NCBI RefSeq assembly: GCF_053078305.1
Contig: NZ_CP166879.1
Direction: 5' to 3' (one strand)
DNA: 64,000 nt
The notes under the pieces were generated by a model. The model searched no databases. It had not been told where the DNA came from and worked only from the letters and a program-made list of their open reading frames with translations. Numbering within the stretch: the first letter of the stretch is position 1; each line of letters starts with the position of its first letter. Both the position numbers and the translations under genes were made by a program. Of the stretch, positions 1-55,161 are shown piece by piece.

Positions 1-319
1 GGATGATATTGGCGTTGTCCGGCACTTTAATACCGATGGCATCTTCGATGGCGTAAACCGAAGCCAGGGCGTGTACGCCAGTACAGACGCCGCAGATACG
101 TTCAACGAACGCCCACGCATCGCGCGGGTCGCGCCCTTGCAGGATGATCTCCAGCCCGCGAAACATCGTGCCGCAGGAGACGGCATTGGTGATCACATTC
201 TGATCGTTAATATTCACTTCGCAGCGCATGTGGCCTTCAATGCGCGTAATCGGGTCGACCACCAGGCGGCGTCCGGCATTATTGATGGTGTATCCCTGAG
301 TTTCGTACTGAGTGCTCAT
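1..319 (-). CDS. hyaB: Hydrogenase-1 large subunit, N-terminal part (runs off window)
   Basis: Reverse translation from ATG at 319-317 gives [30 protein letters not shown]..., matching HyaB; ATG overlaps hyaA stop. Confidence 0.9.
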
Positions 320-1434
320 GCCTGTTTATCCTCATTGCCTGGCTGATGTTCGGTTTCTGTAGGTTGCTGGTTATGACGTCTGCGCTGGTCAACGGCGCTG
401 GCGACTGCGTGCACACCAACAGCCGCTGCCACCACGCCAAGCGCGGTTAAACCGACGGTATCGGCGGTGGAATGAGTACCCATTTGCGGAATATCGACCA
501 CGCGGCTGTAGAACGAACCGCGATCCCAGAAACCATTTTCCGCACAGCCCAGGCAGCCGTGACCAGACTGGATTGGGAAAGAAACGCCATCATTCCAGCG
601 TGTGGAGGAACAGGCGTTATAGGTGGTAGGCCCTTTGCAGCCCATTTTGTACAGGCAATAACCTTTGCGGGCAGCGTCATCATCCCAACTCTGGACGAAC
701 TCTCCGGCGTCGAAGTGAGCGCGGCGATAGCATTTATCGTGGATACGCTGACCATAAAACATCAGTGGACGACCCATTCTGTCGACATCTGGCAAGCGAT
801 CAAAGGTCACCATGTAAGTAATGATGGCGCTCATCACATCCGGGATCGGCGGGCAGCCAGGTACTTTGATAATGGGTTTGTCGGTGATGACTTTGTCGAT
901 AGGCGTTGCCTGTGTCGGATTGGGTCGCGCGGCCTGCACGCAGCCCCAGGACGCGCAGGTTCCCCAGGCGATAATCGCGCTGGCTCCGGCAGCGGCACGT
1001 TTGAGTTTCTCAATAAACGGTCGTCCGCTGCTGATACAGAACATCCCCTGCTCGCCCAGCGGCGGATTACCTTCTACTGCGAGGATATATTTGCCATTGT
1101 ATTGCGTGATGATGTCTTCAAAGACTTCTTCCGCCTGGGTTCCGGCGGCAGCCATCAAAGTATCATCGTAATCGAGGGAAATCAGGGAAAGGATGACGTC
1201 CTTTGCCAGCGGGTGAGCGGAGCGGATAAAAGATTCGGTACAGCAGGTGCATTCCAGACCGTGGATCCATACCACTGGAATGCGGGGTTTATTCTCCAGC
1301 GCCCAGGCAATCTTTGGTGCCATTCCCGCGCCTAATCCCAGCGACGTGGCAGCCAGACTACAATATTTGAGAAAGCTGCGCCGGGTAACGCCCTGACGCC
1401 GCATGGCCTGGTAAAATGTTTCCTCGTTATTCAT
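316..1434 (-). CDS. hyaA: Hydrogenase-1 small subunit; ORF-track entry extends upstream from a TTG, real start is the ATG at 1434
   Basis: [30 protein letters not shown]... Tat signal and Cys-rich Fe-S motifs; K-12 synteny with serT. Confidence 0.9.
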
Positions 1435-1859
1435 ATCGCACGTCTCTCCTCCTTGCGACACCGGCAGGACACCGGGCGCACATGGTCGGCAAGCGACGTC
1501 CCTGTAGCAAGGCAAACCATCGCTTCACGTGAGATGCTGAAAACGAAAGCTCATCCTTCTGCACTGGCGCACGTCGCCAGAAAGTAATGTTAATAAAGCG
1601 TAGTGAAACTTTTGCACAAAACAATACAAACTGTGTGGATTTATCTTTTAGCGATAAAAATGGACCTATTTTTCTTTTTGCCGGGCGGTGGGATGTTTAG
1701 CCTGTTGCTAAACGAGTAAAAGAGAAGGAATTCATGGTGATGAAATGATCAATCTGCTGTTATTTCACGCTATCAATGCACTTTTGGCTGTTTTTCAGGC
1801 AAACAAACAAATTAGGGGTTTACACGCCGCATCGGGATGTTTATAGTGCGCGTCATTCC

Positions 1860-1947
1860 GGAAGTGTGGCCGAGCGGTTGAAGGCACCGGTCTTGAAAAC
1901 CGGCGACCCGAAAGGGTTCCAGAGTTCGAATCTCTGCGCTTCCGCCA
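1860..1947 (+). tRNA. serT: tRNA-Ser (anticodon UGA), intact; 3' 60 nt is the attL core
   Basis: GGAAGTGTGGCCGAGCGGTTGAAGG...CGCTTCCGCCA, long variable arm, anticodon loop cTTGAAAa. Confidence 0.9.
1888..1947 (+). repeat. attL core: 60-bp direct repeat, identical to 51881-51940
   Basis: Exact 60-nt match read directly in sequence; mismatch immediately upstream (1887 c vs 51880 t). Confidence 0.85.
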
Positions 1948-5154: not shown

Positions 5155-5295
5155 TTACTGCTTACACTGTAAGAACGCCGCAATCTCCGCGCCCGCTATC
5201 CGGAACCGGAACTCGCACAGTGAACTGTGGGTGATCCAGATAATGAGCACTACCGTGATACAAATCACGGTGGTTTTTAACGGTTTTTGCGACAT
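5155..5295 (-). CDS. hok: Hok/Gef-family type I toxin (46 aa), not in ORF track
   Basis: Own translation: MSQKPLKTTVICITVVLIIWITHSSLCEFRFRIAGAEIAAFLQCKQ; TM helix plus LCE-R-R...AAF signature; AAGGAG RBS 9 nt upstream. Confidence 0.6.
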   Translation of the reverse strand: MSQKPLKTTVICITVVLIIWITHSSLCEFRFRIAGAEIAAFLQCKQ

Positions 5296-5493
5296 AAACG
5301 CTTGCTCCTTTTACGGAGAGGCGCTAACCTTCAATTTGCTGAAGATCGAAAGTCAGGCCTCGGGTTAAACATGAATGTTTGTCCGGGGCCTTCGTCTTTC
5401 CGGCCTTCAGGTGTTCCCTCCGGCCATCAGCCAAAGGCACCCGCGCATACTGTACGGTTTTTGTCTCCTTCCGGCAATCCCGGGGCGCGATGT

Positions 5494-11242: not shown

Positions 11243-11571
11243 CAGTTCACCACCTGCTTAAACTCCGCGCTGAACTCAACGCGCAACATCCCGACCCGCG
11301 CAGACCACCCGGCACAGGTCACCTTTATCTGCCGGTATGCATAGGGTGGCTTCCACAAAAATGCCTTCCAGCCCCCGTGCTCTGCCAGGAACGCTTCCAG
11401 ATGCCGGGCCTCCTCCCGGCTCACGGAAAGCATCACCCGGTATGTTTTCAGGTCAGCATTCAGCCCTGCCGCCATACGCTGTGAGTACCCGTCACCAAAA
11501 CGCACTTCACGCACCGATGGCTGCGAGTTCACCTCCATATCCGGCTTCACTTTCCAGCGAAAGGTTTTCAT
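11242..11571 (-). CDS. M: Minor tail protein M
   Basis: MKTFRWKVKPDMEVNSQPSVREVRFGDGYSQR... matches lambda M. Confidence 0.85.
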   Translation of the reverse strand: MKTFRWKVKPDMEVNSQPSVREVRFGDGYSQRMAAGLNADLKTYRVMLSVSREEARHLEAFLAEHGGWKAFLWKPPYAYRQIKVTCAGWSARVGMLRVEFSAEFKQVVN

Positions 11572-14180
11572 CGCCCGCTCCCTGATAACATACCGCCATC
11601 ACGCAACTGCAGCCGGAGTTCATCCTGCGCCCCCTTACGGGCCATGTCATACACCGCCTTCATCAGCTGCGGCCCCGCCTGTCCGTTGATACCGTCGTTC
11701 TGAATCACCACGTGATTGTTCTGATTAAAATTAATACCTTCCGCCCGCCGCATCTGCGCCGGACTTCCGGCACCACCCACATACCCCCCTTCCGCATAGC
11801 CGCGCATCAGACGGTAAAGATTCCCCACGCCAATCCGGCTGGTTGCCTCCTTCGTGAAGACAAACTCCCCGCGGTGAACTATCCCCGCAGGCTCATATTT
11901 GCCGCCCGTCCCCGTAAATCCTCCGGTCGCGAAATGGGAGTTCGCCGCCGCAGCCTGAATGGCCGTCCCCGTGGAAGCGGATGCGCCACCACCGAAAGCA
12001 CCACCAATGGCGCTGCCGATACTCCCGACAATCCCCACCATCGCCTGCTTCAGAAAAATCTCTGTCAGCATGGAGAGCACGGAACGGGTGAATCCCCGCC
12101 AGTTCTGTTCGCTGCCGGTCAGCATCGCTGCCATATTCTGTGCAATACCGTCAAAGGTCTGCGTGGCCGCGCTTTTCACCTGCGAAAAACTGTCCGTCGC
12201 ACTTTCCGCCCACTCGCCCCAGCCGGACTTCATCCCGGCCATCCAGCTTCCACGAAGCTGCTCCTCTGCAGACCAGGTGTTCTTCAGTGCAGATGTGGCC
12301 TTCGCCAGCGCAGCCGGATTATCACCGTACACGTCACGAAGGCGCTGCTCTTCCGACTCCCGCTGCGCCTGACGGTCGGTGAGGCCGCGGGCTTTTGCGC
12401 TGATGGCGGCCTGCTTCGCGCTCTGCTGCTGTTCAAACCGCGCCGCCTGCTGTGCCAGCTCATTCAGCCGTTTCTGGTGTTCAACCTTGTCGCCCAGGTC
12501 AGCCAGCTGGCGTTTGTACTCCAGCGTCTCTTTCTCATGGGCCAGCAGGGATTTTTCCTGCCCGGATAACTGTCGTTTCGTGGCGGCCTCTTTCAGGACC
12601 GCATACTGACTTTCCGCCTTCCATAAATCACGGCGCTGCCGGCTGATTCTCTCATTCGCACCGCTGTGTTTTTCCAGCGTCCTGAGCTCAGCTTCAAGGG
12701 CAAGCAGAGCCTCTCTTGCCTGCTCCTCTTCCCTCTCCCCGGCAGAGCGCGTTTTCGGTGATGTATGCTTTTTACCTGTCAGCTCTTCAGCCAGACGGCT
12801 GACGGCTTCCTGCTGCCCCGGACCTTTGCTGACGCCTGTTGCACGCGAACGGTTGATGTACCCCATTTCCCCCTGGCGTATACGCGCATCCCGTTCCGCA
12901 ATGGATTTTCTCAGCGCCAGTTCATCGCGTTTTGTCTTCTCAATAAATACGCGGTTCTCTTCTGCCAGTTCACCAAACAACGCACCAACGCCGGGCACAT
13001 TCTTTGTCGTTTCCCAGGCTGACTGAATAAATTCAGCCAGCGCCAGATCCCCCTGCACAAGCAGCAGCTTCACCTGTTCAACGGTTCCTGCCACCACGTC
13101 AGTGATCAGACTGAGTGCCCCCAGTGTATGATCACCTATCCATGCCCATGCGTCAGAAGTCCAGGTTTTAACATCGTCCCAGATTTTTTCCACCGGCGTG
13201 GCCGCTTTATCAAGTTGCTCCAGACGTGCATTCATGACATCCGCAAACAGGGACATCGCCTCCGTTACCGCAGCCTGTTTACCTTTCGTGCGCTCAAGCT
13301 CATCAATATGGCGTAACTGGGAAACGCTCAGGAAGTTATACTGCTGATTCAGGGAGGCCAGCGCCTTCACCGGATCAGCTGCAATCCCTTCAAAGGCTTT
13401 TTCCACCTTCCCGGCATCGTCCCCCACCGTCTGCAGCCATCTCTGAGAGGTTTCCCCCATGATCCGTAGCTGCCCGGCGGTATATTTCCCGCTTTCTGCC
13501 AGACGGGCCAGATTTTCTGCCGCCTGTCTGATACCACCACCGGCTTCATCGCTGATCACCCCGGCCATTTTCCACAATTCTGCCGTTGTGGTGGCAGCCG
13601 CCCCTCCGGTCAGGGTCAGTGAACGCAACAAGGCCCGGTCAGCCTGCTCTGCCTGCCAGGCAGCGGCAGCAAGCGCGGCCAGTACGGCAACCCCGCCACC
13701 TGCCGCCACACGGGCCACCGACATAAATCGTCCCAGTTCACCGGCATTCCGGGCATTTTCAGCCAGTGCATTTGCCGTATCTGACAGCGAATCCTCTGAT
13801 GATTCAGAGGCATCCCTGATCCCGAGAAGTTCCTCCTTCAGCAGGGTAAGCAGGCTGAGCGGTCCACCGAATGAATCGCTGATCTGCCCCCCCTGCTGCA
13901 GCATGATAAGGAAGGGATTCTGACCACCGGCAAGCTGAGTGACAATATCCGTGAACTGTGCGGGCAGTGTGCGCATGGCAGCCTTATACTGTCCGACTGA
14001 TATCCCGGCTTTTTGTGCAGCCAGCGCCTGTCGGCTCAGCCCCTGTTCAACAGTACTGGCGGTTTTTCTGGCATCCGCCTCCAGACTGGAAAAATGGCGG
14101 CGTACCCGGGCCATCTGTTCATCAAACCGGGCCGCATCCAGACTCAAATCAATAACAAGATCACCCGCTGGCTGGGACAT
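11568..14180 (-). CDS. H: Tail tape measure protein H
   Basis: 870 aa, coiled-coil rich, Gly-rich C-terminal region; position between GT and M. Confidence 0.85.
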   Translation of the reverse strand: MSQPAGDLVIDLSLDAARFDEQMARVRRHFSSLEADARKTASTVEQGLSRQALAAQKAGISVGQYKAAMRTLPAQFTDIVTQLAGGQNPFLIMLQQGGQISDSFGGPLSLLTLLKEELLGIRDASESSEDSLSDTANALAENARNAGELGRFMSVARVAAGGGVAVLAALAAAAWQAEQADRALLRSLTLTGGAAATTTAELWKMAGVISDEAGGGIRQAAENLARLAESGKYTAGQLRIMGETSQRWLQTVGDDAGKVEKAFEGIAADPVKALASLNQQYNFLSVSQLRHIDELERTKGKQAAVTEAMSLFADVMNARLEQLDKAATPVEKIWDDVKTWTSDAWAWIGDHTLGALSLITDVVAGTVEQVKLLLVQGDLALAEFIQSAWETTKNVPGVGALFGELAEENRVFIEKTKRDELALRKSIAERDARIRQGEMGYINRSRATGVSKGPGQQEAVSRLAEELTGKKHTSPKTRSAGEREEEQAREALLALEAELRTLEKHSGANERISRQRRDLWKAESQYAVLKEAATKRQLSGQEKSLLAHEKETLEYKRQLADLGDKVEHQKRLNELAQQAARFEQQQSAKQAAISAKARGLTDRQAQRESEEQRLRDVYGDNPAALAKATSALKNTWSAEEQLRGSWMAGMKSGWGEWAESATDSFSQVKSAATQTFDGIAQNMAAMLTGSEQNWRGFTRSVLSMLTEIFLKQAMVGIVGSIGSAIGGAFGGGASASTGTAIQAAAANSHFATGGFTGTGGKYEPAGIVHRGEFVFTKEATSRIGVGNLYRLMRGYAEGGYVGGAGSPAQMRRAEGINFNQNNHVVIQNDGINGQAGPQLMKAVYDMARKGAQDELRLQLRDGGMLSGSGR

Positions 14181-15023
14181 ATCTCACACCTCCGGAAATC
14201 CCCGCTGAAGCCATCATTAATGCAACATCATCTTCGCTGACATCCACCACATCCGCAGAAGGTGAAATATCGCCCCCACCCACCCCACAGAACCGGACGC
14301 CTCCGGCAACTCCTGCCGCTTTCTGCATCAGCATGTCTTCCTCGTCCGGCATCTCCGTCTGCTCTTCCTCACACGCTGGCGCAAGCAGACTGAAATCCGC
14401 CGGATGCATATCCGGATCGCCAAAAAACAGGCTGAGTACGGCGTACATCAGCCCGGAAAAATGAGCGTCCAGTTGGGTATCCTGAAAATAATGCGTGCAG
14501 TAAAAACGTCGCCAGTCGGCATATTCGGTGGATGTCATCCCGGCAAGCATGGCGCGCCAGTCGGGTCTCCCCATCTCTCGCGCCAGTTTCAGGACAAAGT
14601 TCAGCTCGCCTTCGAATGCTTTTTTGATGTTACCGGCTCAGTCGCTTCTGCTTTCCCGGTTTGTTCAGGATCGGCATCGTGCCGGTTATCCAGCATACCT
14701 GAAAGATAAAGCACCCGGTTCGTTGCCTGATTCAGTGCATCAGCAGGCCATCCCAGCATCACTTCACGGCGGATCTGCTGCATCTCTGTCTCCGGAGAGG
14801 CCAGAGTGCCTTTGAGGGAATGGGAATGCCATAGCGACATCGCCACAAGCAGGGATGCCGTTTCCAGATATCGCTGGTTAATGTGCACGACATCATGCTT
14901 CGTTGTCCCCTGTTGTTCTGCGTCTGAAACAAACTTCATATAATCAAACCGCTGCAGCGCGGACAGCTCCGACAGCGTGACGGACACACCGTTATATTCA
15001 AATTGTTCTGTTTTCAGGAACAT
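14161..15023 (-). CDS. GT: G-T fusion tail assembly chaperone made by programmed -1 frameshift near 14619-14625
   Basis: Slippery heptamer A_AAA_AAG near G 3' end; -1 frame continues AFEGELNFVLKLAREMGRPDW... into ORF 14161-14574. Confidence 0.75.
14601..15023 (-). CDS. G: Tail assembly chaperone G; start trimmed to ATG at 15023
   Basis: MFLKTEQFEYNGVSVTLSELSALQRF... matches lambda G; 140 aa. Confidence 0.85.
   Translation of the reverse strand: MFLKTEQFEYNGVSVTLSELSALQRFDYMKFVSDAEQQGTTKHDVVHINQRYLETASLLVAMSLWHSHSLKGTLASPETEMQQIRREVMLGWPADALNQATNRVLYLSGMLDNRHDADPEQTGKAEATEPVTSKKHSKAS
14619..14625 (-). promoter_or_regulatory. Programmed -1 ribosomal frameshift slippery site
   Basis: + strand ctttttt = minus-strand A AAA AAG, 5 codons before G stop. 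Confidence 0.75.
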
Positions 15024-15039: not shown

Positions 15040-15789
15040 TCAGCCCGCAGCGCCATCCGTGACGGTGATCTCCGCCACCGCCGCAAACTCACCGTTGCCG
15101 GTGACAACAGGGATCTGCGCTTTACCTGCCGCAACACCTTTCACGGTGATCGTGTTCCCTTTCACGGTAATGGTGGCGAAATTCTGATTTGCCGACGTTG
15201 CGCGGAATGTTTTATCCGTTGCGCCTTCCGGCTGAACGGCCACAGTCAGGGTGGTGCTCTGACCTTTTGCCACATTCCCCGTTAGTGGCGTCACGGTAAT
15301 ACCGGTGACCGGTGTGATTTCTCCCCGATCCTCCGCCAGCGACGGACGACCAATATTGGTGATTTTTACCGTACGGGTAATCACTTCTTTGGCAGTCACC
15401 GCTTTACCAATGGCGCTGACCCAGCCACGAAACACATCCACCGTGCCATTCGGAAAACGGATTTTATAGGCCCGGACATCGCCGCTTTCAAACCAGCCTA
15501 TAAGCCCTTTCTGGCCTTCCTCTCCCGGCTTCCAGGCCAGCGTAAAACTGGTATCACCGGCAGATTTCTGCCCCTGCCCGGTGGATACCCAGTCAGCATC
15601 CTCATCATCCAGATAGTTATCATCGTAGGATTCCGCCGTCATCTCGCCGGGGGTCAGATCCTTCACCTTCGCCAGTCGCTGCCAGTCATCGTCTGACAAC
15701 GGGTTTGCATAAGCATCAGCCTTGCCGTTGTAAACCCACAGTGTGGTACCGGAACCTTTCACCGGCTCAAGAGGATTTGGTGTTGCCAT
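15040..15789 (-). CDS. V: Major tail protein V
   Basis: [33 protein letters not shown]... matches lambda V incl. C-terminal Ig-like region. Confidence 0.9.
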
Positions 15790-25449: not shown

Positions 25450-25917
25450 CTAGTTAATACACTGAGTGCGGATATATTCCTTCGCCCCTTCCAGCTGCTT
25501 CTGCATTGTCATCAACCGTTCTCTGAGGATGAAATAATCCCGTTCAGCGGTGTCTGCCAGTCGGGGGCCGGTTGCATTATCCACGCCGGAGGTGGTGGGG
25601 GCTTCACGCACGGAGCCTGGACAGGTGGCTTTAACCCGCAGGCGCTTACGACCAGCGGCAACATCAGCACGCAGAGTTTCATTTTCAGCTCTCGCATCGG
25701 CTAATTCCCTCGAGTATTTAGCATCGAGCGCAGCAACATCGCGCTGGCGCTGCTGCATATCAGTAATGGTTGCGTTTGCCAGCTCCAGCTCTCTGGCTTT
25801 TTTATCGCGCTGCGCTTTGTAGGTGATGGCGTTATCGCGGTAATGATTCAGCCCCAGACTAAGCGCACCACAGGCCACCAGCAGGACAATAATCACCACA
25901 CACAGAACACGGTTCAT
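25450..25917 (-). CDS. Rz: i-spanin Rz
   Basis: ...[45 protein letters not shown]... matches lambda Rz. Confidence 0.9.
25512..25697 (-). CDS. Rz1: o-spanin Rz1 lipoprotein, embedded in +1 frame of Rz
   Basis: ...[27 protein letters not shown]... matches lambda Rz1; lipobox VSAC. Confidence 0.85.
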
Positions 25918-26849
25918 ATCACCACCATTTCACTGTTTTCTTTTTCCAGACGTTTTTTTGCAACAGCGAAATACCGGTCATCCTTTTCTATTCCGGTAAA
26001 CCGTCTCCCCGTCCGGATACATGCAACACCTGTTGAACCACTCCCCATAGTAAAATCCAGTACCCTGTCGCCAGGGTTGCTGTACGTCTGAATCAGCTCT
26101 TCCAGTAATGCAACTGGCTTCTGGGTCGGATGCCATCGCTCCCGCTCCCGCGCGTACTCCAGAATATTTGCGCGGTATTTTTTCCCCTGAGGGAGATTAA
26201 AAACCACAGTGCCGTAACCGGAATTCACTTTGCACATTTCTTCATATGTCATGAAACCCGGCATACGGTCGATACCAAAGCGTTTAATTAACTCGTTGTA
26301 CGTATCCTGTGAGCAGAGGGAAAACTGGACTGTGTTCACGCGAAAAAAATGCTCTGCCCGACAGTGCCCCAGTGTTTTGTTAACTTCCTTGTCTGTCCTG
26401 TGGCCAATGAAAGAAAGGATATTTCGGGCGTACTCCCTCAGCGGGTGGTTTTTCTCACTGTCATATTTTTTCCGGAAAACAACGATATCCTCGAATAAAG
26501 ATACAGGTGCTTTTTTTACTGAAAGCGGGTTGGGGAAATGCTCCTTCTTCCACACCATACGATATAAAAACGGCAGGTTTTTATCCGCCAGAGTAATCAT
26601 CGTGCTTGTATGCGGCTCCTGGCTGAACATGACCAGCACACCGCCCACCCTCAGCAGTCGTTCGCACTGTGTGAAAATATCTTCAGGATTTAAGGCATCG
26701 TCCCATGCTGTCGTACTCTTATCCCATGTACGGAGTGTAAGCCCTTTAATGGTTCCATACGGCGGGTCACATAAAACCAGGTCAACACTTCCCGGTAGTA
26801 ATGAAGGCATAACATCAAGACAGTCACCGGAATACAGTACACATTTCAT
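25914..26849 (-). CDS. DNA methyltransferase, beta-class (DPPY, N6-adenine or N4-cytosine); stop overlaps Rz start
   Basis: [10 protein letters not shown] near N-terminus; HPTQKP and FTMGSGSTG (SAM-binding) near C-terminus; ATGA overlap with Rz. Confidence 0.75.
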
Positions 26850-31963: not shown

Positions 31964-31993
31964 GCCCGCATCTCACCATGCGGGCTTTTTTTA
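31964..31993 (+). terminator. Rho-independent terminator on + strand
   Basis: cccgcat-ctcacc-atgcggg hairpin followed by cttttttta. Confidence 0.5.
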
Positions 31994-32000
31994 TCCATAA

Positions 32001-32238
32001 GAAAGCCCCTCCGGAGAGGGGCTGGAGTAGCGCTATGTACCGTTCATTACATGATGCCGGGTGCCTCCCGGTGAGTTCAGCCCGGTGCCACCGAACCCGC
32101 GTCATTCTCGCTAACGATCATCAGAGACCATTCCGTACACCAGCCGCCCCTCCGCACAGGGGGATTCATCATGCAGAAATTTTTTAACAAATTCTCAGTC
32201 GGGAAGACAACCTTCAACTGACTGAATTGTGAGCAACA
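32001..32238. repeat. Structured repeat unit 1 (~238 bp), diverged copy of unit at 32489-32723
   Basis: Shared blocks: gcccctccggagaggggc hairpin, gccgggtgcctcccggtgagttcag, cccctccgcacagggggattca-ATG, ttttaacaaa, ctgaattgtgag. Confidence 0.7.
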
Positions 32239-32488
32239 TAGCATTTAACGGGGAACCTGTTTTCTGCAGTAAAAAGGCCCACCGGAGCGGACGGGCCTGG
32301 AAGGATAGCGGTCATGTGATGCCGGTTTCCCGGTAACTCAGCACCGGTATCTGAGTCAACGTTTTCTCTACTGGGTCATTTCCGATACGCCCTGCCTGCT
32401 GACAGGCTTTCATCACATCTGAAAATATAGCACCCTGACTGATACTGTAGTACCCAAGGTTCCAGAAACTGTGATGTATCCGGCACAG

Positions 32489-32723
32489 AAAAGCCCCTCC
32501 GGAGAGGGGCTGACGCTGCGTATCTGTATCATCATGCGCATGGTGCCGGGTGCCTCCCGGTGAGTTCAGTATCAGCACCTGAACCCGCACAGAAAGGATA
32601 AGGGATGTAACCAAACACCTGTCGCTGATATGCCCCTCCGCTCAGGGGGATTCACCATGCCAGTTTCTTTTAACAAACTCCCCGCAAATCAGACAACTGT
32701 CAACCGTCTGAATTGTGAGACAT
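32489..32723. repeat. Structured repeat unit 2 (~235 bp)
   Basis: Same block order as unit 1; hairpins preserved by compensatory changes (ccgcaca vs ccgctca loop). Confidence 0.7.
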
Positions 32724-32789
32724 TTAAAATTTTCGGGGCAACAGGAAGACAATCATCACGACACCGGCAACCAGCGACCGGCACCAGAT

Positions 32790-33725
32790 TTAACGTATGT
32801 GCACACAACCTGAACCGGCATCAAAAAACAAACCGTGCACTGACAGAAAACGGGAAACCTCCGTCCGCTGATCATCACTCATTAAGGACCACACAAAGGC
32901 GTTATGCTCATCTTCAAGTTTCCGTCTTCTTGTTTGCCTTACAAGCAACTCAGCCGTCACCTGTACAATGTCAATGACCACCTTCTCTTCAGCAATGTAC
33001 GGCCTGTTCCAGTTCTCTGTGTTAATCTTCTCCGTCACCGGCGCTGACTTTTTGCAAGTTTCCCCATTAAACCCGACGCCATAAACAACAACATCATCGC
33101 TTTGCTTTTCGTTATCAATAATGACGAATAATACAGAAACCGATGTATCAGCGAACCCGCCTGAAATCTGAACCAACTCAACAACGCGGTTGCCAAAATA
33201 CTGACGCATTGCCAGCTCACCACGCCTGTAACCAACCCCGGGAAAGCACAAAAAAAATGAAAATCTTGCCTTCATACTCGCCAGAACATAAAACGCGTCA
33301 TCCAGAACACCGGAGGTCTTTTTATAAGGCATCATCGCTGAAATCTTCTCCCTGATATCCGCGCTCTGTGCTTTGTACTGTAGCGAAAAAGGCGGATTCA
33401 TGATGACACAATCGAACGTGTCCGTGTCACTGACATCATCTATGGCGTTGAAGAAATTTTCATTGACCGTCTTCACTGTGGCATCCGGAAAGTTATCCGG
33501 GATATGCAACAACGGAGAGGCCTGTATATCCACAGCATACAGACTTCCCACCGTGAGAAACTGCTCCAGTTGCCCGGAGCCACACGCACCATCAAAAATA
33601 CTCAGGGGCAGATCACCACAATATTCCCGCACTTTTTCAGCGACAAACCGACGCAAAGGAACGGACGTGATGTACTCTGCGTATTTTCTGGCGACTTCGC
33701 GATTATTGGATTCCTGAAAAACCAT
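32790..33725 (-). CDS. Putative N6-adenine DNA methyltransferase, gamma-class-like (motif I before NPPF)
   Basis: IFDGACGSGQL (SAM-binding) then VIMNPPF; 311 aa, too small for a separate target-recognition domain; lies at stx-equivalent locus. Confidence 0.6.
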   Translation of the reverse strand: MVFQESNNREVARKYAEYITSVPLRRFVAEKVREYCGDLPLSIFDGACGSGQLEQFLTVGSLYAVDIQASPLLHIPDNFPDATVKTVNENFFNAIDDVSDTDTFDCVIMNPPFSLQYKAQSADIREKISAMMPYKKTSGVLDDAFYVLASMKARFSFFLCFPGVGYRRGELAMRQYFGNRVVELVQISGGFADTSVSVLFVIIDNEKQSDDVVVYGVGFNGETCKKSAPVTEKINTENWNRPYIAEEKVVIDIVQVTAELLVRQTRRRKLEDEHNAFVWSLMSDDQRTEVSRFLSVHGLFFDAGSGCVHIR

Positions 33726-33810
33726 TTGTGAAAGGCTCTGTGGTTGATATGCGCCGGGCGTGGCACGGAGACAAAAAAGGCCCGCAAAAGCGAGCCTGGG
33801 AAAATAAGTG

Positions 33811-33887
33811 TGGCGCGTTGTACTGGATTCGAACCAGTGACCGATTGCTTAGAAGGCAATTGCTCTGTCCGACTGAGCTAACAACGC
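33811..33887 (-). tRNA. argO: tRNA-Arg (anticodon UCU), argO-like
   Basis: Cloverleaf folded by hand: acceptor GCGTTGT/ACAACGC, anticodon loop CTTCTAA, T-loop GGTTCGAATCC, CCA end. Confidence 0.75.
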
Positions 33888-33900
33888 ATGATGCTGATAA

Positions 33901-33977
33901 TGGACCGCCATCGGGGACTTGAACCCCGCGCAGCCAGCTTCGAAGGCTGGCGCTCTGTCCCGATGAGCTAATGGCGG
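33901..33977 (-). tRNA. argN: tRNA-Arg (anticodon UCG as read), argN-like
   Basis: Acceptor CCGCCAT/ATGGCGG, anticodon loop CTTCGAA, T-arm CGGGGTTCAAGTCCCCG. Confidence 0.65.
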
Positions 33978-33986
33978 TATGTGATA

Positions 33987-34062
33987 TGGTGGCCCTTGCT
34001 GGATTTGAACCAGCGACCTGGCGATTATGAGTCGCTCGCTCTCACCACTGAGCTAAAGGGCC
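33987..34062 (-). tRNA. ileZ: tRNA with CAU anticodon, ileX-like (tRNA-Ile2 via lysidine, or Met)
   Basis: GGCCCTTTAGCTCAGTGGTGAGAGC...CTCATAA...GGTTCAAATCC...CCA; close to E. coli ileX. Confidence 0.75.
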
Positions 34063-34102: not shown

Positions 34103-35161
34103 TCATCCGTTCTGACTGGCTAAATCCTGAACTTCCCTGACCGTCTGCTCAAAACGTTCAGTCTCCAGCTCAACGCCAGTTGCACGACGCCCCAGCGCCA
34201 TCGCGGCTTTGACTGTCGAACCCGACCCCATGAAAAAATCTGCAACCAGGTCCCCCGGACGACTGCTCGCGCTGATTATCTGCTGCAGCATTTCTGCCGG
34301 TTTTTCGCACGGATGTTTCCCGGGATAGTACTGCACCGGTTTATGCGTCCACACATCCGTGTACGGCACCTGCGCCGTCACACCGAAATACCGCCGCAGA
34401 TGCTTATATTCACTCTGCAGTTCCGCATACTGCCGGTTCAGTGAAGTATATGTCTCCAGCAGCTGGTGGTGGGGCTTTTCCAGTTCACCCCGCTGATGCT
34501 TCTCTTCTGCCACCCGGGCAAACAGCGCCTGTAATTTCAGATAATCACTTTCGTTCGGCAGCTGCCACTGACTGGCACTGAACCAGTGCGACACCATGTT
34601 TTTCTTTCCTGTGGCATCCACTATCTGTTTTGCCGTTATCCCCAGGGCAGCGCGCGCATCACGAAAGTAAGCAATCAGCGGGGCCATCACATGCTGTTTC
34701 AGTGCCCTGCCCTTCGCCTCATACCCGGCATCTTTCGGACGATACGGCCCCTGATAATGTTCCGCGAACAGAATGCGCTCTGTGGCGGGGAAATACGCCC
34801 GCAGGCTTTCCTTGTTGCACCCGTTCCAGCGTCCGGACGGCTTTGCCCAGATGATATGGTTCAGCACACTGAAGCGTTCACGCATCATGATTTCAATGTC
34901 AGACGCCAGGCGATGACCACAGAACAGGTAAAGACTTCCGGCAGGTTTCAGCACCCGCCAGAACTGCGCCAGACACTGGTCCAGCCACTTCAGGTAATCA
35001 TCGTCGCCCTTCCACTGGTTATCCCAGCCCTCGGGCTTCACTTTAAAGTATGGCGGGTCTGTGACTATCAGATCGACAGAGTTTTCCGGTAAGGTCTGGA
35101 TAAATTCCAGGCAATCAGCGTTGATTAACTCACAACTGGATATTTTTACAGTATTAAGCAT
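34103..35161 (-). CDS. DNA methyltransferase, beta-class (DPPY ... FxGxG), 352 aa
   Basis: DLIVTDPPYF near N-terminus; DFFMGSGSTV near C-terminus. Confidence 0.75.
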   Translation of the reverse strand: MLNTVKISSCELINADCLEFIQTLPENSVDLIVTDPPYFKVKPEGWDNQWKGDDDYLKWLDQCLAQFWRVLKPAGSLYLFCGHRLASDIEIMMRERFSVLNHIIWAKPSGRWNGCNKESLRAYFPATERILFAEHYQGPYRPKDAGYEAKGRALKQHVMAPLIAYFRDARAALGITAKQIVDATGKKNMVSHWFSASQWQLPNESDYLKLQALFARVAEEKHQRGELEKPHHQLLETYTSLNRQYAELQSEYKHLRRYFGVTAQVPYTDVWTHKPVQYYPGKHPCEKPAEMLQQIISASSRPGDLVADFFMGSGSTVKAAMALGRRATGVELETERFEQTVREVQDLASQNG

Positions 35162-38690: not shown

Positions 38691-38846
38691 TTACTTCTCA
38701 GATTCGTAGTCTACGAAGACAGCAACCTCCGTCTGGCCGGTTCGGATTCGTACCTCGCAGAGGTCTTTCCTCGTTACCAGTGCCGTCACAACAACGGTAA
38801 TACAGATGACGATCAGGGCGATTAACATCGCCTTTTGCTGCTTCAT
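38691..38846 (-). CDS. hok: Hok-family type I toxin (51 aa)
   Basis: MKQQKAMLIALIVICITVVVTALVTRKDLCEVRIRTGQTEVAVFVDYESEK; track ORF extends upstream (mok-like reading frame). Confidence 0.8.
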   Translation of the reverse strand: MKQQKAMLIALIVICITVVVTALVTRKDLCEVRIRTGQTEVAVFVDYESEK

Positions 38847-39136
38847 AGCCTGCTTCTCCTTGCCTTTCGGCACGTAAGAGGCTAACCTACGTTTGTGAAG
38901 CATAGATTGGGCCTCAGATTAATGTTAAGCGTCCTGCAAGACGCGTAATGTTAACTGGGGCTTTTCTCTGTCTGCCTTACGGCGGCATGCCCGAGGCAGA
39001 CAGCCTCAAGCACCCGCAGCAATTCTACTTAACTCTTCTTTCCCCGCAAACCGTTTTTATCCCCAGCGGCAAATCGAATACACCACCAGCGCCACCGCCA
39101 TTGCAATACCAACATTTGAGAAGGCCTCAGGCCAGC

Positions 39137-46475: not shown

Positions 46476-46933
46476 AAAGTGAATTTTGTGATGCGGTGAA
46501 TGCGGCTAAGCGCACGCGGAACAGTTAAAACCGTAAAGTGGTCTTTTACGGGGCGTAACGGGCATACTTCTGTATTCCGGCGTTAATTGTTAACTGGTTA
46601 ACGTCACCTGGAGGCACCAGGCACTGCATCGACAAAGTTCACTTCGGTGATGAAAGGTAAGAGAAAATGTTGAATGTAGCTATTGAAAACCAGAACGGGT
46701 GGAATTATAGTGCACCTGCACCTCATAAAGCGGGTGCCGGGATTGCTACCCCGATGTTCATCATGGCGCATAACCGCGCTCAGGCGTTTTTTTTATGCGT
46801 AATGCACAGCCACATTCAGATTATGGTGGGGCGTGCAGGGCAGCCGCAAGGCTGGCCGGGTTCCATGATGACCGGTTGTAGCAACCCTGTGCGTCTCACC
46901 ACCCATGAGATTGCTACCTCCGGTGGTGAGTTA

Positions 46934-47518
46934 ATGAAATTCATCATGGAGGCTGCCATCATGGCTACTATCCCTGCCCTTTCTCACCCTGAAATTACTA
47001 TCGCCAATGGGCGTGCTGTTACATCCTCTTTAGCTGTTGCCGAGTATTTCCGGAAACCACACAAAGATGTACTGGCAAAAATTTCACGTCTAGACTGTTC
47101 AGCAGAATTCACTGAGCGAAATTTTTCGCCCAGTGAATATACCGACTCAACCGGGCGCAAACTCCCTATGTACCAAATCACCAAAAACGGCTTCGTTTTC
47201 CTGGTGATGGGCTTCACCGGCAAAAAAGCCGCTGCATTTAAAGAAGCCTACATCGCTGAGTTCGATCGCATGGAGAAAGAACTGCGCCAGAATAACGCCC
47301 CGTCTCCCGACAAAATGATTCACGGGGACGGACGTACCCTGGTTATCCGTCTCGACGAACACGGCAATATCAAATTCACTGAAACCGTTCCTGATGGTGC
47401 AATGGTCTGCACCCTGGATACCTTCCAGTTTTATCTGGAGAAACAAGGCTGGACTCTTGTAAACCGGAGCGCAATTAAAAATATGACTGTGGAGCAATTA
47501 CTAAAAATTCATTGTTGA
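46934..47518 (+). CDS. rha: Rha-family phage regulatory protein (start uncertain: 46934 or 46961)
   Basis: ...ITIANGRAVTSSLAVAEYFRKPHKDVLAKISRL...PMYQITKNGFVFLVMGFTGKKAAAFKEAYI... Rha domain. Confidence 0.65.
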   Translation: MKFIMEAAIMATIPALSHPEITIANGRAVTSSLAVAEYFRKPHKDVLAKISRLDCSAEFTERNFSPSEYTDSTGRKLPMYQITKNGFVFLVMGFTGKKAAAFKEAYIAEFDRMEKELRQNNAPSPDKMIHGDGRTLVIRLDEHGNIKFTETVPDGAMVCTLDTFQFYLEKQGWTLVNRSAIKNMTVEQLLKIHC

Positions 47519-50499: not shown

Positions 50500-50751
50500 A
50501 TGTACGAATTAACTCTATCGCCAGCAGAAATTCAAGAGATCACGAGATACGAACGGTATACAAAACAGCAACAACAGTTAAGGTTGCACGGTATCCCATT
50601 TGTACCCGGTCCTAAAAACGAACCAATAGTTCTTCGCAGTGATGTCCCGCGCGGACTGACTGCGATACCGAAAGTATCTGAACTGGTTTCTGCTGACCCC
50701 GATTTTGAGGCGCTGAACAATGGGAAGACCAAGAAAAAACAAAAAAGATAA
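50500..50751 (+). CDS. xis: Putative excisionase
   Basis: Small basic protein immediately upstream of and overlapping int. Confidence 0.5.
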   Translation: MYELTLSPAEIQEITRYERYTKQQQQLRLHGIPFVPGPKNEPIVLRSDVPRGLTAIPKVSELVSADPDFEALNNGKTKKKQKR

Positions 50752-51739
50752 TGCACTACCGCCACGTGTTAGATCGAATGGTTACAGTTACGTATGGAAA
50801 CCCGAAGGAAGCACAAAAACTATAGGGCTAGGAAGAGTGCGGGAAACCAGCATAGCTAAAGTCTGGCAGAATTATGAACTGGAAAAAGCAAAACGCCACA
50901 ACATAATGACCGTCGCTAAATTATGGCACATGTTTATGGATTCCCCCGCATTTACAGAACTGGCCCCCAGAACCCAAAAAGATTATCGGCAACATCAGAG
51001 GGCGTTACTGGCAGTCTTCGGAAAAGTACTGGCTGATAATGTAAAAATTGAGCAGGTAAGAATTTTCATGGATAAACGGGGGATTGAGAGCAAGACCCAG
51101 GCAAACCATGAACTGGCAAGTCTCAGTCGTGTATACGGGTGGGGATATGAGCGTGGATATGTGAAGAATAACCCATGCAAAGGAGTCAGGAAATTTACGC
51201 TTAAAGCCCGCACTGTTTACATCACAGATGAACAGTATGCGGCGATATATGCGGAAGCAATACCACAGTTACGCATTGCAATGGAGATATCCTATCTTTG
51301 TGCGGCAAGACTCGGTGATGTGCTCGAGCTGAAATGGCAGGATATTATGGATAAAGGAATCTACATTGAGCAAAACAAGACCGGCACCAAACAAATCAAG
51401 GAATGGTCTCCACGATTACGAACCGCGATCCAGTTAGCCAGAAATGTATCTTCAGGCACATGTGAATATGTGATCAACACAACCAAGGGCGGGAAGGTCA
51501 TAGCTAAAACGCTAAACAACTGGTGGAACCAGGCTAAACACGCAGCCGAGAAAAAATCCGGCGTCCCGTTTGGGTGCAATTTCCATGACATAAAAGCCAA
51601 AGGAATATCAGATTACGAAGGAAGCAGTCGCGACAAACAGATTTTCAGTGGACATAAAACAGAAAATCAGGTGTTGATTTATGATCGTAAAACAAAAATC
51701 ACGCCGACACTGGATTTGCCACTTGTGGTCAGCAAGTAG
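50720..51739 (+). CDS. int: Tyrosine integrase
   Basis: 339 aa; catalytic R (AARLGDV), H-x-x-K and terminal HKTENQVLIYDRK (Tyr) motifs; adjacent to attR. Confidence 0.85.
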   Translation: MGRPRKNKKDNALPPRVRSNGYSYVWKPEGSTKTIGLGRVRETSIAKVWQNYELEKAKRHNIMTVAKLWHMFMDSPAFTELAPRTQKDYRQHQRALLAVFGKVLADNVKIEQVRIFMDKRGIESKTQANHELASLSRVYGWGYERGYVKNNPCKGVRKFTLKARTVYITDEQYAAIYAEAIPQLRIAMEISYLCAARLGDVLELKWQDIMDKGIYIEQNKTGTKQIKEWSPRLRTAIQLARNVSSGTCEYVINTTKGGKVIAKTLNNWWNQAKHAAEKKSGVPFGCNFHDIKAKGISDYEGSSRDKQIFSGHKTENQVLIYDRKTKITPTLDLPLVVSK

Positions 51740-51880
51740 GCAACTCAGGAAATTTTCTGGCAAAAAAGACTTGGTATACTAACTCTGAAAGCTCCCTAAC
51801 AGCCTGATTTTTCTAGGTGTTAAGTTTGGTTAATTTTTCAGCTATTTTTCGTATTGCATTGATTTTTATTTATTTTTCAT

Positions 51881-51940
51881 CGGTCTTGAAAACCGGCGAC
51901 CCGAAAGGGTTCCAGAGTTCGAATCTCTGCGCTTCCGCCA
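51881..51940 (+). repeat. attR core: 60-bp direct repeat (displaced serT 3' fragment)
   Basis: Identical to 1888-1947. Confidence 0.85.
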
Positions 51941-51946
51941 GATAAG

Positions 51947-51985
51947 ATAAGGGGTTAGCTAAATGCTAACCCCTTTTTCTTTTGC
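51947..51985 (+). terminator. Rho-independent terminator (likely the original serT terminator)
   Basis: aggggttagc-taaat-gctaacccct perfect hairpin + T-tract. Confidence 0.6.
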
Positions 51986-52146
51986 CTGTCGAAATTCTCA
52001 GGGCGTTATATTTGCTTAATGACCTGATAATCCGCTGTTAAACCTGTTCCAGATCAAATGCGTAAAGATGGGTAAAACTTCTGGGTGCCCTTACGCATTA
52101 TCATTATGCTGCTTAATTAATTACATCTGTCATAGAGAGTGACTCA

Positions 52147-52806
52147 ATGGATCGTATTGTTAGTTCTTCACATGACCGTACATCACTGCTTAGCACCCAT
52201 AAGGTGCTGCGTAATACCTATTTTCTGCTGAGCCTGACGCTGGCCTTTTCGGCGATTACCGCAACTGCCAGTACGGTGCTGATGCTGCCATCTCCGGGTC
52301 TGATTCTGACGCTGGTGGGTATGTATGGTTTGATGTTCCTGACCTATAAAACGGCGAATAAGCCGACCGGGATTATCTCCGCATTCGCCTTTACCGGTTT
52401 TCTGGGTTATATCCTCGGACCAATTCTGAACACCTATCTGTCTGCCGGAATGGGTGACGTAATCGCTATGGCACTGGGCGGAACGGCGTTAGTGTTCTTC
52501 TGCTGCTCTGCATATGTGCTGACCACCCGCAAAGATATGTCGTTCCTCGGCGGTATGCTGATGGCGGGTATTGTGGTGGTGCTGATTGGTATGGTTGCTA
52601 ATATCTTCCTGCAACTGCCTGCTCTGCATCTGGCGATCAGCGCGGTCTTCATTTTGATCTCCTCTGGCGCTATTTTGTTTGAAACCAGCAACATCATTCA
52701 TGGCGGTGAAACGAACTATATTCGTGCCACGGTTAGCCTGTATGTTTCGCTGTACAACATCTTCGTCAGCCTGCTGAGCATTCTGGGCTTCGCCAGCCGC
52801 GATTAA
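52147..52806 (+). CDS. yccA: Inner-membrane protein YccA (BAX inhibitor-1 family, FtsH modulator)
   Basis: [34 protein letters not shown]... Confidence 0.9.
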
Positions 52807-52896
52807 TCTCACCCGCTAACACTTTCATAGCCTCGCTTTATGCGGGGCTTTGTTTTTTGTTACACTGCCGGCAGTCTGATTAAGGTAGTAATAATT

Positions 52897-53226: not shown

Positions 53227-53501
53227 CGGATACGAAAATCGGTTAATTCACCCGAGGGATGATGCGGCTCGCTGAGCACCCGTTCTACACGCGCAGAACG
53301 CGGGCCGCCACTCTTTAACCACTGCATTAATTTTTCTACCTGCCCTTCTTCACCGCAAGCAACCACTTCCACGCTGCCATCGTCAAGATTTTTGGCGTAC
53401 CCGCTTAACCCGAGTTTTTTCGCTTCGTACTGCGTGGTATAGCGAAATCCTACGCCCTGAACTCGCCCGTAAACCCAGGCAATTATGCAGACTTTCGACA
53501 T
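53223..53501 (-). CDS. yccX: Acylphosphatase
   Basis: [32 protein letters not shown]...; start trimmed to ATG at 53501. Confidence 0.9.

Positions 53502-54786: not shown

Positions 54787-55161
<375 letters not shown>

What the first reader, a model, noticed from the sequence alone, without database searches (positions are those of the whole stretch)
14161..15023. Conserved G/GT programmed -1 frameshift with an A_AAA_AAG slippery site
Five codons before the G stop the heptamer A AAA AAG (the dnaX-type slip site) allows a -1 shift into the T frame, giving a G-T fusion chaperone for the tape measure protein. The reading frames line up exactly as in lambda, although the slip heptamer differs from lambda's G GGA AAG.
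Basis: partly seen in the sequence, partly recalled or inferred. Interest (0 to 1): 0.35.

Follow-up and report, generated by a model that had tools for sequence, protein, structure and literature searches.

The report
Lambda-type G/GT tail chaperone frameshift
This is the well-known lambda-style -1 ribosomal frameshift that makes a small amount of a G-T fusion tail-assembly chaperone; here it sits in an E. coli lambdoid prophage and uses the slip site A_AAA_AAG instead of lambda's G_GGA_AAG, so it is real but ordinary.

Summary
All the genes lie on the minus strand. G runs 15023..14601 (140 aa). The heptamer A_AAA_AAG sits at 14625..14619 in the G frame, five codons before the G stop. The -1 frame is open from 14637 to the stop at 14163-14161, so a slip would give a 287-aa G-T fusion.

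G and the -1-frame segment pass the NCBIfam equivalog models for lambda G and lambda T. Gene order is Z-U-V-G-T-H, as in lambda. In 83 G genes (window, 3 reference records, 79 IMG/VR loci), 64 carry AAAAAAG and 17 carry GGGAAAG, all exactly five codons before the stop. More distant relatives use G_GAA_AAG. Only the A_AAG tetramer is constant.

T-frame amino acids are conserved from the first codon after the slip. The internal ATG that RefSeq uses as the T start has no Shine-Dalgarno sequence and is a Phe codon in other clades. Published reporter data give AAAAAAG and GGGAAAG equal slippage, so a lambda-like low GT:G ratio is expected.

Databases list G and a truncated T separately, and the fusion is unannotated. 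One addition: a roughly 70-nt RNA structure starts 6-8 nt after the heptamer and is the only conserved fold in G-T. It may stimulate the shift, but this is unproven.

Verdict: a new member of a known kind, of low interest.

The parts
14601..15023 (-). Gene G, the tail assembly chaperone (140 aa). ATG at 15023, stop TGA at 14603-14601.
   Evidence: Translation. Pfam Phage_TAC_2 1.8e-33. NCBIfam TIGR01674 equivalog 118.7 bits. 43% identity to lambda gpG and 97% to VT1-Sakai G. Strong Shine-Dalgarno sequence upstream, -11.2 kcal/mol.
14619..14625 (-). Slip heptamer A_AAA_AAG. The G-frame codons are AAA AAG, preceded by the A of TCA.
   Evidence: Sequence and position scan. Present in all 64 sequences of this slip class, and homologous in position to lambda's G_GGA_AAG.
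14604..14637 (-). The 34-nt overlap in which both the G frame and the -1 (T) frame are open. A productive shift can only happen here.
   Evidence: (the -1 frame opens after TGA at 14640-14638).
14161..14619 (-). The -1-frame T segment read after the slip (152 aa, starting AFEGELNF...), with stop TGA at 14163-14161. Joined to G residues 1-135 it gives the 287-aa GT fusion.
   Evidence: Pfam Phage_tail_T 1.8e-11. NCBIfam TIGR01715 197 bits, with the profile starting at residue 5 of the segment. 69% identity to lambda T from the first post-slip residue. Contiguous match to the fused phrog_32165 profile.
14572..14574 (-). Internal T-frame ATG that RefSeq uses as the start of a separate 137-aa 'T' protein. 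Probably not a real start.
   Evidence: Annotation of the RefSeq homologue. No Shine-Dalgarno sequence: -3.0 kcal/mol against a background median of -4.0. The homologous codon is TTC/TTT (Phe) in the G_GAA_AAG clades.
14542..14610 (-). Candidate frameshift-stimulating RNA structure. The outer 7-bp stem pairs 14610..14604 with 14548..14542. It encloses a GC-rich hairpin pairing 14585..14579 with 14556..14550. The spacer from the heptamer is 8 nt.
   Evidence: MFE -31 kcal/mol, z -2.4. The same architecture folds independently in lambda (z -4.1) and the LLS type (z -4.3). Pair counts are 89.6% paired against 42% or less when slid, with one covarying pair. The consensus-fold scan reaches -20 kcal/mol only here, against about 0 to -2 over most of the rest of G-T and no lower than -7.6. 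Not proven: RNAalifold on all 42 sequences does not recover it, and an earlier published analysis scored the lambda hairpin as near background.
15040..15789 (-). Gene V, the major tail tube protein, immediately upstream.
   Evidence: Pfam Phage_TTP_12 8.9e-68 plus Big_2.
11568..14180 (-). Gene H, the tape measure protein (870 aa). Its ATG at 14180 overlaps the end of T by 20 nt.
   Evidence: Pfam TMP_2 1.1e-45 plus Tape_meas_lam_C 5.3e-21. Shine-Dalgarno sequence at -13.3 kcal/mol.

Best explanation
This is a programmed -1 ribosomal frameshift of the lambda G/GT type.

Most ribosomes translate G (15023..14601) to its stop and make the 140-aa chaperone gpG. A small fraction shifts instead. With tRNA-Lys on AAA in the P site and tRNA-Lys on AAG in the A site, those ribosomes slip back one base on A_AAA_AAG (14625..14619), re-pair on AAA_AAA, and read on from GCA at 14619. 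They make a 287-aa fusion that ends at 14161: G residues 1-135 followed by the 152-aa T segment.

By homology with lambda, the G part binds the tape measure protein H and the T part recruits the tail tube protein V. The low GT:G ratio is set by slip efficiency.

What is shown: the sequence geometry, the homology of both halves, conservation of the slip site, and the absence of an independent T start.

What is inferred: that the fusion is actually made, its ratio to G, and the roles of its two halves.
For: 1. **Phasing.** The heptamer is correctly phased, and it is the only one in the 34-nt overlap of the two frames.
2. **Identity of both halves and synteny.** G and the -1 segment pass the NCBIfam equivalog cut-offs for lambda G and lambda T and the matching Pfam models. 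They abut on the fused-GT PHROG profile. Synteny is Z-U-V-G-T-H.
3. **Conservation.** 64 sequences with AAAAAAG and 17 with GGGAAAG all sit 5 codons before the G stop. More distant relatives carry G_GAA_AAG at the same place. A_AAG is invariant across 64 distinct junction sequences.
4. **T-frame coding.** Conservation (ELxFxLxLAREF/MGRPDWRAML) starts at the first codon after the slip. T is 69% identical to lambda T from residue 1, while G is only 43% identical.
5. **No independent T start.** No ATG, GTG or TTG lies between the T-frame stop and ATG 14574. That ATG has no Shine-Dalgarno sequence (-3.0 kcal/mol against -11.2 for G and -13.3 for H). It is a Phe codon in other clades.
6. **Literature.** Lambda makes gpGT by -1 slippage at G_GGA_AAG at roughly 1:30, and the ratio matters for tail assembly (PMC5009743). 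In E. coli reporters AAAAAAG and GGGAAAG slip equally: 0.29 vs 0.28% bare, 4.3 vs 3.8% with the IS911 stimulator, and 39 vs 43% with the IS3 stimulator (PMC4066793 supplement).
Against: - No experiment on this sequence exists, and the fusion is inferred.
- The exact 287-aa fusion is not in a 15-billion-protein collection. G and a truncated T are listed there as separate proteins. This most likely reflects annotation practice.
- A bare A_AAA_AAG gave only about 0.3% slippage in reporters. A lambda-like level of about 3-4% would need a context effect, and that has not been demonstrated here.
Confidence: 0.93

Rival explanations
1. G and T are two separately initiated proteins, as RefSeq and GenBank annotate them, with T starting at ATG 14574 and no frameshift.
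For: RefSeq (PGAP) and the VT1-Sakai record list separate G and T CDSs. The 137-aa T sequence is on 242 contigs under that name.
Against: ATG 14574 has no Shine-Dalgarno sequence: -3.0 kcal/mol, weaker than the background median. It sits inside a predicted GC-rich hairpin. The homologous codon is Phe in the G_GAA_AAG clades. T-frame amino-acid conservation and the NCBIfam T profile both begin upstream of it, right after the slip site.
Confidence: 0.03
2. The fusion arises mainly from transcriptional slippage. RNA polymerase adds one extra A in the A6 run, which gives an mRNA whose normal translation yields the same ...SKKAFE... protein.
For: The heptamer contains a run of six A. One inserted A puts T in frame and gives an identical protein, so protein data cannot tell the two mechanisms apart (sequence). 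This route is open to this slip class but not to lambda's GGGAAAG.
Against: Documented bacterial transcriptional slippage uses runs of about 9-11 A or T (PMC5009743; PMC4256274). The homologous sites GGGAAAG and GGAAAAG have only three or four A yet keep the same position. The invariant feature is the ribosomal A_AAG motif, including the final G.
Confidence: 0.03
3. The heptamer is a coincidence, and T is a decaying or unexpressed remnant in a defective prophage.
For: AAAAAAG is frequent in the window: 27 copies against 12.6 expected.
Against: The probability of a hit in the 11 in-frame positions of the overlap is about 0.003. The heptamer is invariant across 64 sequences. T is intact and 69% identical to lambda T. 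The whole head and tail module is intact.
Confidence: 0.01

Closest known systems
Bacteriophage lambda G / G-T tail assembly chaperone frameshift (Levin, Hendrix & Casjens 1993; Xu, Hendrix & Duda 2004, 2013, 2014, as cited in PMC5009743)
   Same: - Orthologous genes: G 43% and T 69% identical, and both pass the NCBIfam equivalog models.
- Same V-G-T-H order and the same 140-aa G.
- Slip site at the homologous Lys codon, 5 codons before the G stop.
- Same A-site A_AAG slip on tRNA-Lys.
- No upstream Shine-Dalgarno-like stimulator.
- The same predicted downstream fold.
   Different: - The P-site codon is AAA (Lys) rather than GGA (Gly), so both slipping tRNAs are tRNA-Lys.
- The fusion is 287 aa rather than 279 aa.
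- The T/H overlap is 20 nt rather than 8 nt.
- The A6 run in principle allows transcriptional slippage as a minor route.
E. coli dnaX gamma/tau frameshift signal
   Same: An identical heptamer, A_AAA_AAG, decoded by the single E. coli tRNA-Lys (mnm5s2UUU).
   Different: dnaX has an upstream Shine-Dalgarno-like stimulator and a hairpin 6 nt downstream, shifts about 50% of ribosomes, and gives a shorter product. Here there is no Shine-Dalgarno-like element, the efficiency is expected to be low, and the product is longer.
Other E. coli prophage tail-assembly-chaperone clusters already catalogued with these heptamers (Sharma et al. 2014: A_AAA_AAG_25 = ECs1801; G_GGA_AAG_4 = gpG)
   Same: -1 frameshift candidates in tail chaperone genes. 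One uses A_AAA_AAG. Both are marked as true frameshift cases with no Shine-Dalgarno sequence and a predicted downstream hairpin.
   Different: ECs1801 has a 124-aa zero-frame product and a 226-aa shifted product, against 140 and 287 aa for the gene here. The gene here has the size and sequence of the gpG cluster (135/279/141) but carries the other heptamer. I did not find this exact combination listed in that paper's tables.
G_GAA_AAG class of lambda-G relatives (phage LLS, Gifsy-2)
   Same: Homologous G and T, with the slip at the same Lys codon. The LLS record annotates a joined CDS and a 'minus-one programmed translational frameshift site GGAAAAG'.
   Different: The heptamer is non-canonical: the P-site GAA re-pairs on GGA with a mismatch. 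In Gifsy-2 the stop follows after one codon, and the downstream fold differs.

Membership tests
Lambda gpG/gpGT tail assembly chaperone | The zero-frame protein belongs to the lambda G family. | tested here: met
   Pfam PF06894 at 1.8e-33. NCBIfam TIGR01674 equivalog at 118.7 bits, cut-off 74.45. 43% identity to lambda gpG over the full length.
Lambda gpG/gpGT tail assembly chaperone | The -1 frame downstream encodes a lambda T domain. | tested here: met
   Pfam PF06223 at 1.8e-11. NCBIfam TIGR01715 equivalog at 197 bits, cut-off 77.35. 69% identity to lambda T.
Lambda gpG/gpGT tail assembly chaperone | The gene lies between the major tail protein gene and the tape measure gene. | tested here: met
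   V (Phage_TTP_12) is upstream and H (TMP_2 plus Tape_meas_lam_C) is downstream. Z and U lie further upstream.
Lambda gpG/gpGT tail assembly chaperone | T has no translation start of its own and is expressed only as a fusion. | tested here: met
   The only start codon in the open T frame is ATG 14574. It has no Shine-Dalgarno sequence (-3.0 kcal/mol) and is a Phe codon in sister clades. Coding conservation begins at the slip site. This is sequence evidence only.
Lambda gpG/gpGT tail assembly chaperone | The fusion protein is made at a low ratio to G and is needed for tail assembly. | not testable with these tools
   This needs a western blot or mass spectrometry plus genetics. Equal reporter slippage of AAAAAAG and GGGAAAG only predicts a similar ratio.
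Canonical -1 programmed ribosomal frameshift signal | An X_XXY_YYZ heptamer, phased in the zero frame, inside the overlap of the two frames. | tested here: met
   A_AAA_AAG at 14625..14619, phased as TC[A AAA AAG], within the 34-nt overlap.
Canonical -1 programmed ribosomal frameshift signal | The slip site is conserved among homologues. | tested here: met
   64 AAAAAAG and 17 GGGAAAG sequences, all 5 codons before the stop. A_AAG is invariant in 64 distinct junction sequences.
Canonical -1 programmed ribosomal frameshift signal | A downstream stimulatory RNA structure 5-9 nt from the heptamer. | tested here: inconclusive
   For:
- A structure 8 nt downstream, -31 kcal/mol, z -2.4.
- The same architecture in lambda and the LLS type, z about -4.
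- The only strong conserved fold in G-T.
- 89.6% of cells paired, with one covarying pair.
- Lower synonymous diversity at paired third positions, 0.16 against 0.28.

Against:
- The region is also the most conserved protein segment.
- RNAalifold on all 42 sequences does not recover it.
- Gifsy-2 folds differently.
- Sharma et al. scored the lambda hairpin at background level.
dnaX-type frameshift cassette | The A_AAA_AAG heptamer. | tested here: met
dnaX-type frameshift cassette | A Shine-Dalgarno-like stimulator about 10 nt upstream. | tested here: not met
   The best anti-SD duplex in the 25 nt upstream is -4.1 kcal/mol, equal to the background median of -4.0.

The most novel reading that the evidence does not exclude
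The roughly 70-nt structure at 14610..14542 may be a genuine, moderate frameshift stimulator shared by all three slip-site classes of the lambda-G family. It consists of an outer stem 6-8 nt after the heptamer enclosing a GC-rich hairpin, and it forms a three-way junction in lambda.

This would explain why native lambda G-T shifts at about 4% while the bare heptamers give about 0.3% in reporters.

A corollary follows for the A_AAA_AAG class. Both slipping tRNAs are tRNA-Lys(mnm5s2U), so the GT:G ratio of this class should be more sensitive than lambda's to host tRNA thiolation state.
Probability: 0.35. Interest if true: 0.35.

Novelty: new member of a known kind. Interest (0 to 1): 0.15.

Why it matters
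The main value is for annotation. In this very common E. coli prophage family, the exact G protein is found on 859 contigs. Databases list G plus a truncated 'T' that starts at an internal ATG with no ribosome binding site. The real product, the 287-aa GT fusion, is missing from a collection of about 15 billion proteins.

The comparison also shows that, across the lambda-G family, selection holds the A-site A_AAG and its exact position while the P-site codon varies (AAA, GGA or GAA).

The conserved downstream fold gives a cheap, testable lead on how the low GT:G ratio is set. None of this changes current understanding of tail assembly.

Tried and rejected
- **Upstream Shine-Dalgarno-like stimulator, as in dnaX.** Anti-SD duplex energies upstream of the heptamer are at background. 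Rejected.
- **Independent start for T.** The internal ATG has no Shine-Dalgarno sequence and is not conserved. Rejected.
- **Other slip heptamers in the overlap.** None found.
- **Rfam.** The gathering-threshold scan gave no hit in the G-T region.
- **Consensus fold.** RNAalifold on all 42 junction sequences did not return the proposed structure. It appears only when the three Gifsy-2-type sequences are left out, so I report it as a candidate only.
- **Single-sequence fold scan.** The post-slip window is the most stable in G-T (-31.3 kcal/mol, z -2.95). However, a second window near 14480 has a lower z (-4.4) and is not conserved. Single-sequence stability is therefore not decisive.
- **Literature.** I tried to read Xu et al. 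2013 (PMC3762263) for data on downstream elements in lambda, but it is not held. I could not verify from text what Levin et al. 1993 reported about downstream sequence effects.
- **Not done.** I did not run structure prediction or the large protein searches, because family membership was already settled by curated equivalog models.
Full report
**1. What is in the sequence**

The genes lie on the minus strand.

- **G gene.** An ORF starts at ATG 15023, preceded by a strong Shine-Dalgarno sequence (AGGGGAGGA, -11.2 kcal/mol against the anti-SD). It ends at TGA 14603-14601 and encodes 140 aa.
- **Slip site.** The last G-frame codons are ACA TCA AAA AAG CAT TCG AAG GCG AGC TGA. The heptamer A_AAA_AAG therefore occupies 14625..14619, phased as X_XXY_YYZ, with five sense codons before the stop.
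- **T frame.** The -1 frame has a TGA at 14640-14638 and is then open to TGA 14163-14161. Both frames are open together for only 34 nt, and this is the only slippery heptamer there.
- **Predicted product.** A -1 slip gives ...EPVTSKK-AFEGELNFVLKLAREMGRPDW..., a 287-aa protein.

**2. Is it more than chance?**

AAAAAAG by itself is not rare. The window has 27 copies against 12.6 expected from shuffles. The chance of one landing in the 11 in-frame positions of the overlap is about 0.003, and about 0.06 for any XXXYYYZ heptamer.

Comparison with relatives is far stronger. I collected 80 IMG/VR loci using a G alignment, plus reference records.

- Of the 83 G genes that could be analysed, 64 have AAAAAAG and 17 have GGGAAAG. 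Every one sits exactly five codons before the G stop.
- Two further scans added the LLS and Gifsy-2 types, which carry G_GAA_AAG at the same Lys codon.
- Across 64 distinct junction sequences, the tetramer A_AAG is invariant while the P-site codon is AAA, GGA or GAA.

**3. What the genes are**

| Gene | Evidence |
|---|---|
| G | Pfam Phage_TAC_2 (1.8e-33); NCBIfam equivalog TIGR01674 phage_lambda_G (118.7 bits, cut-off 74.45) |
| T (-1 segment) | Pfam Phage_tail_T; NCBIfam equivalog TIGR01715 phage_lam_T (197 bits, cut-off 77.35) |
| Neighbours | Z, U, V (tail tube) upstream; an 870-aa tape measure protein downstream |

- PHROG phrog_32165 is a 290-position profile of the joined protein. G covers positions 1-141 and the T segment covers 139-288, with no gap between them.
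- G is 43% identical to lambda gpG and 97% identical to VT1-Sakai G. T is 69% identical to lambda T, starting from the first post-slip residue.
- The surrounding roughly 50 kb is a lambdoid E. coli prophage with a lambda-type head and tail module. The best E. coli RefSeq match to this segment is 98.4% identical.

**4. Why a frameshift and not two genes**

RefSeq and GenBank records annotate G and a separate T. In RefSeq, T starts at the ATG homologous to 14574. Four observations argue against that start:

- It is the only ATG, GTG or TTG in the open T frame upstream of the T domain.
- Its best anti-SD pairing is -3.0 kcal/mol. That is weaker than the background median of -4.0, and far weaker than -11.2 for G and -13.3 for H.
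- In the G_GAA_AAG clades the homologous codon is TTC or TTT, encoding Phe.
- T-frame amino-acid conservation (ELxFxLxLAREF/MGRPDWRAML) and the NCBIfam T profile both start upstream of it, directly after the slip site.

An exact-match look-up gives the same picture of annotation. The 140-aa G is on 859 contigs and the truncated 137-aa T on 242. The 287-aa fusion is absent from a collection of about 15 billion proteins. The fusion is therefore an annotation gap and not a new discovery. Some phage records, such as LLS, do annotate the join and the slip site.

**5. Mechanism**

*Established knowledge.* In lambda, about 1 in 30 ribosomes slips -1 at G_GGA_AAG to make gpGT. The G part binds the tape measure protein, the T part binds the tail tube protein, and the ratio is critical for tail assembly (review PMC5009743; about 96% zero-frame reading, PMC3296357). 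E. coli has a single tRNA-Lys (mnm5s2UUU) that pairs less well with AAG than with AAA, and this makes A_AAG shift-prone. A_AAA_AAG is the dnaX site.

*Measured reporter data (Sharma et al. 2014 supplement).*

| Heptamer | No stimulator | IS911 stimulator | IS3 stimulator |
|---|---|---|---|
| AAAAAAG | 0.29% | 4.3% | 39% |
| GGGAAAG | 0.28% | 3.8% | 43% |

*Inference.* Swapping GGA for AAA in the P site should leave the GT:G ratio essentially unchanged. That fits the two heptamers replacing one another at the same position during evolution. Because both slipping tRNAs here are tRNA-Lys, this class may respond more strongly than lambda to host s2U34 hypomodification, which raises lambda GT slippage. 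I did not test this.

**6. Stimulators**

*Upstream.* Unlike dnaX, there is no Shine-Dalgarno-like element. The best duplex is -4.1 kcal/mol, equal to background.

*Downstream.* The RNA folds into an outer 7-bp stem (14610..14604 with 14548..14542) that begins 8 nt after the heptamer. It encloses a GC-rich hairpin (14585..14579 with 14556..14550). The fold is -31 kcal/mol with z -2.4.

Evidence for a conserved structure:

- Lambda and the LLS type fold independently into the same architecture with 7- and 6-nt spacers (z -4.1 and -4.3, 0 of 200 shuffles as stable).
- On 42 distinct junction sequences the structure is 89.6% paired, against 42% or less when the partners are slid. One pair covaries (G-C in 15 sequences, A-U in 24).
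- With the three Gifsy-2-type sequences removed, RNAalifold returns the same architecture at -22.8 kcal/mol.
- In a sliding scan of the whole G-T alignment (84 sequences, 687 columns), consensus energy reaches -16 to -20 kcal/mol only in windows starting -17 to +33 from the slip site. It stays at about 0 to -2 over most of the rest, and is no lower than -7.6 anywhere else.
- Synonymous diversity is lower at paired third positions than at unpaired ones (0.16 against 0.28).

Evidence against:

- This stretch is also the most conserved protein segment of T, and its conserved codons are the preferred E. coli codons.
- RNAalifold on all 42 sequences does not find the structure.
- Gifsy-2 folds differently.
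- In the window itself, another non-conserved stretch has a lower z-score.
- Sharma et al. scored the hairpin they predicted for the lambda gpG cluster as no more structured than its surroundings.

I therefore call it a candidate stimulator. The tenfold gap between bare-heptamer reporters (about 0.3%) and native lambda (about 4%) suggests that some context effect exists.

**7. Rivals**

- **Separate initiation of T.** Addressed in section 4.
- **Transcriptional slippage on the A6 run.** It would give the same protein. However, known bacterial cases need about 9-11 A or T, and sister clades keep the site with only three or four A.
- **Coincidence.** Excluded by conservation.

**8. Comparison with what is known, and verdict**

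This is an orthologue of the lambda G/GT system with the same geometry and a different, equally efficient heptamer. A tail chaperone cluster using A_AAA_AAG (ECs1801) and the gpG cluster using G_GGA_AAG are already catalogued as true frameshift cases.

The finding is a new member of a known kind and of low interest. One practical correction applies to the proposed assay: a reporter limited to 14600-14640 would omit the candidate downstream structure.

Noticed in passing
window 14161-14300 (-); loci L001-L085: There seems to be a mosaic joint inside T. Loci with an identical G and slip site have T extensions of 95, 111, 113, 138 or 146 aa. Megablast homology to VT1-Sakai-type phages stops at about 14290, just after the conserved T domain. 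The acidic C-terminal tail of T therefore seems to travel with the tape measure gene and not with G.
   Followed up: partly
window 14572-14574 (-); L002 2027-2440: RefSeq (PGAP) annotates 'phage tail assembly protein T' as a separate 137-aa CDS from an internal ATG with no Shine-Dalgarno sequence. The 287-aa GT fusion is absent from a collection of about 15 billion proteins. This looks like a systematic annotation gap for a very common prophage gene.
   Followed up: yes
L004 1408-1414; L005; L086-L165: More distant lambda-G relatives (LLS and Gifsy-2 types) carry the non-canonical heptamer G_GAA_AAG at the homologous position. The P-site tRNA-Glu would have to re-pair on GGA. In Gifsy-2 the stop follows after a single codon.
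   Followed up: partly
window 31993-34062 (-): A tRNA cluster, Met(cat), Arg(tcg) and Arg(tct), lies at 33811-34062. It is followed by an N6-methyltransferase-like ORF (32790-33725) and two STnc100 sRNA copies (31993-32203 and 32483-32689). From my own knowledge of Stx phages (not tested here), they carry stx after such tRNA genes; this prophage has a methylase there instead.
   Followed up: no
window 38841-39015 (-) and 5284-5442 (-): Two Rfam sok antitoxin RNA hits, at 117.7 bits and 63.5 bits (gathering score 59). They suggest hok/sok-type toxin-antitoxin loci inside the prophage. The second lies just downstream of the J-like gene.
   Followed up: no
window 46667-47518 (+): isrK (46718-46794) and C4 antisense RNA (46819-46906) hits lie within the 5' part of an ORF with Ash and Rha domains.
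   Followed up: no
window 316-1947 and 50720-61835: Prophage limits. On one side are tRNA-Ser(tga) at 1860-1947 and a NiFe hydrogenase small subunit gene (316-1515). On the other side are an integrase (50720-51739), then a PUA/SAM-methyltransferase gene (53596-54786; by recollection rlmI), a helicase IV gene (57040-59187; by recollection helD) and a yccS-family FUSC-like gene (59673-61835). The element is about 50 kb.
   Followed up: partly
whole window: AAAAAAG occurs 27 times against 12.6 expected from dinucleotide-preserving shuffles, and only 1 of 100 shuffles reached 27. I did not check the other copies for frame or overlap with alternative ORFs.
   Followed up: no
window about 14405-14480 (-): A locally very stable fold lies inside the T coding region (75-nt window, -28.2 kcal/mol, z -4.4). 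It includes the palindrome CCGGATATGCATCCGG. It is not conserved in the family-wide consensus scan.
   Followed up: partly
window 25914-26849, 32790-33725, 34103-35161 (-): One prophage carries three DNA methyltransferase-like ORFs: two N6_N4_Mtase and one weak N6_Mtase hit.
   Followed up: no
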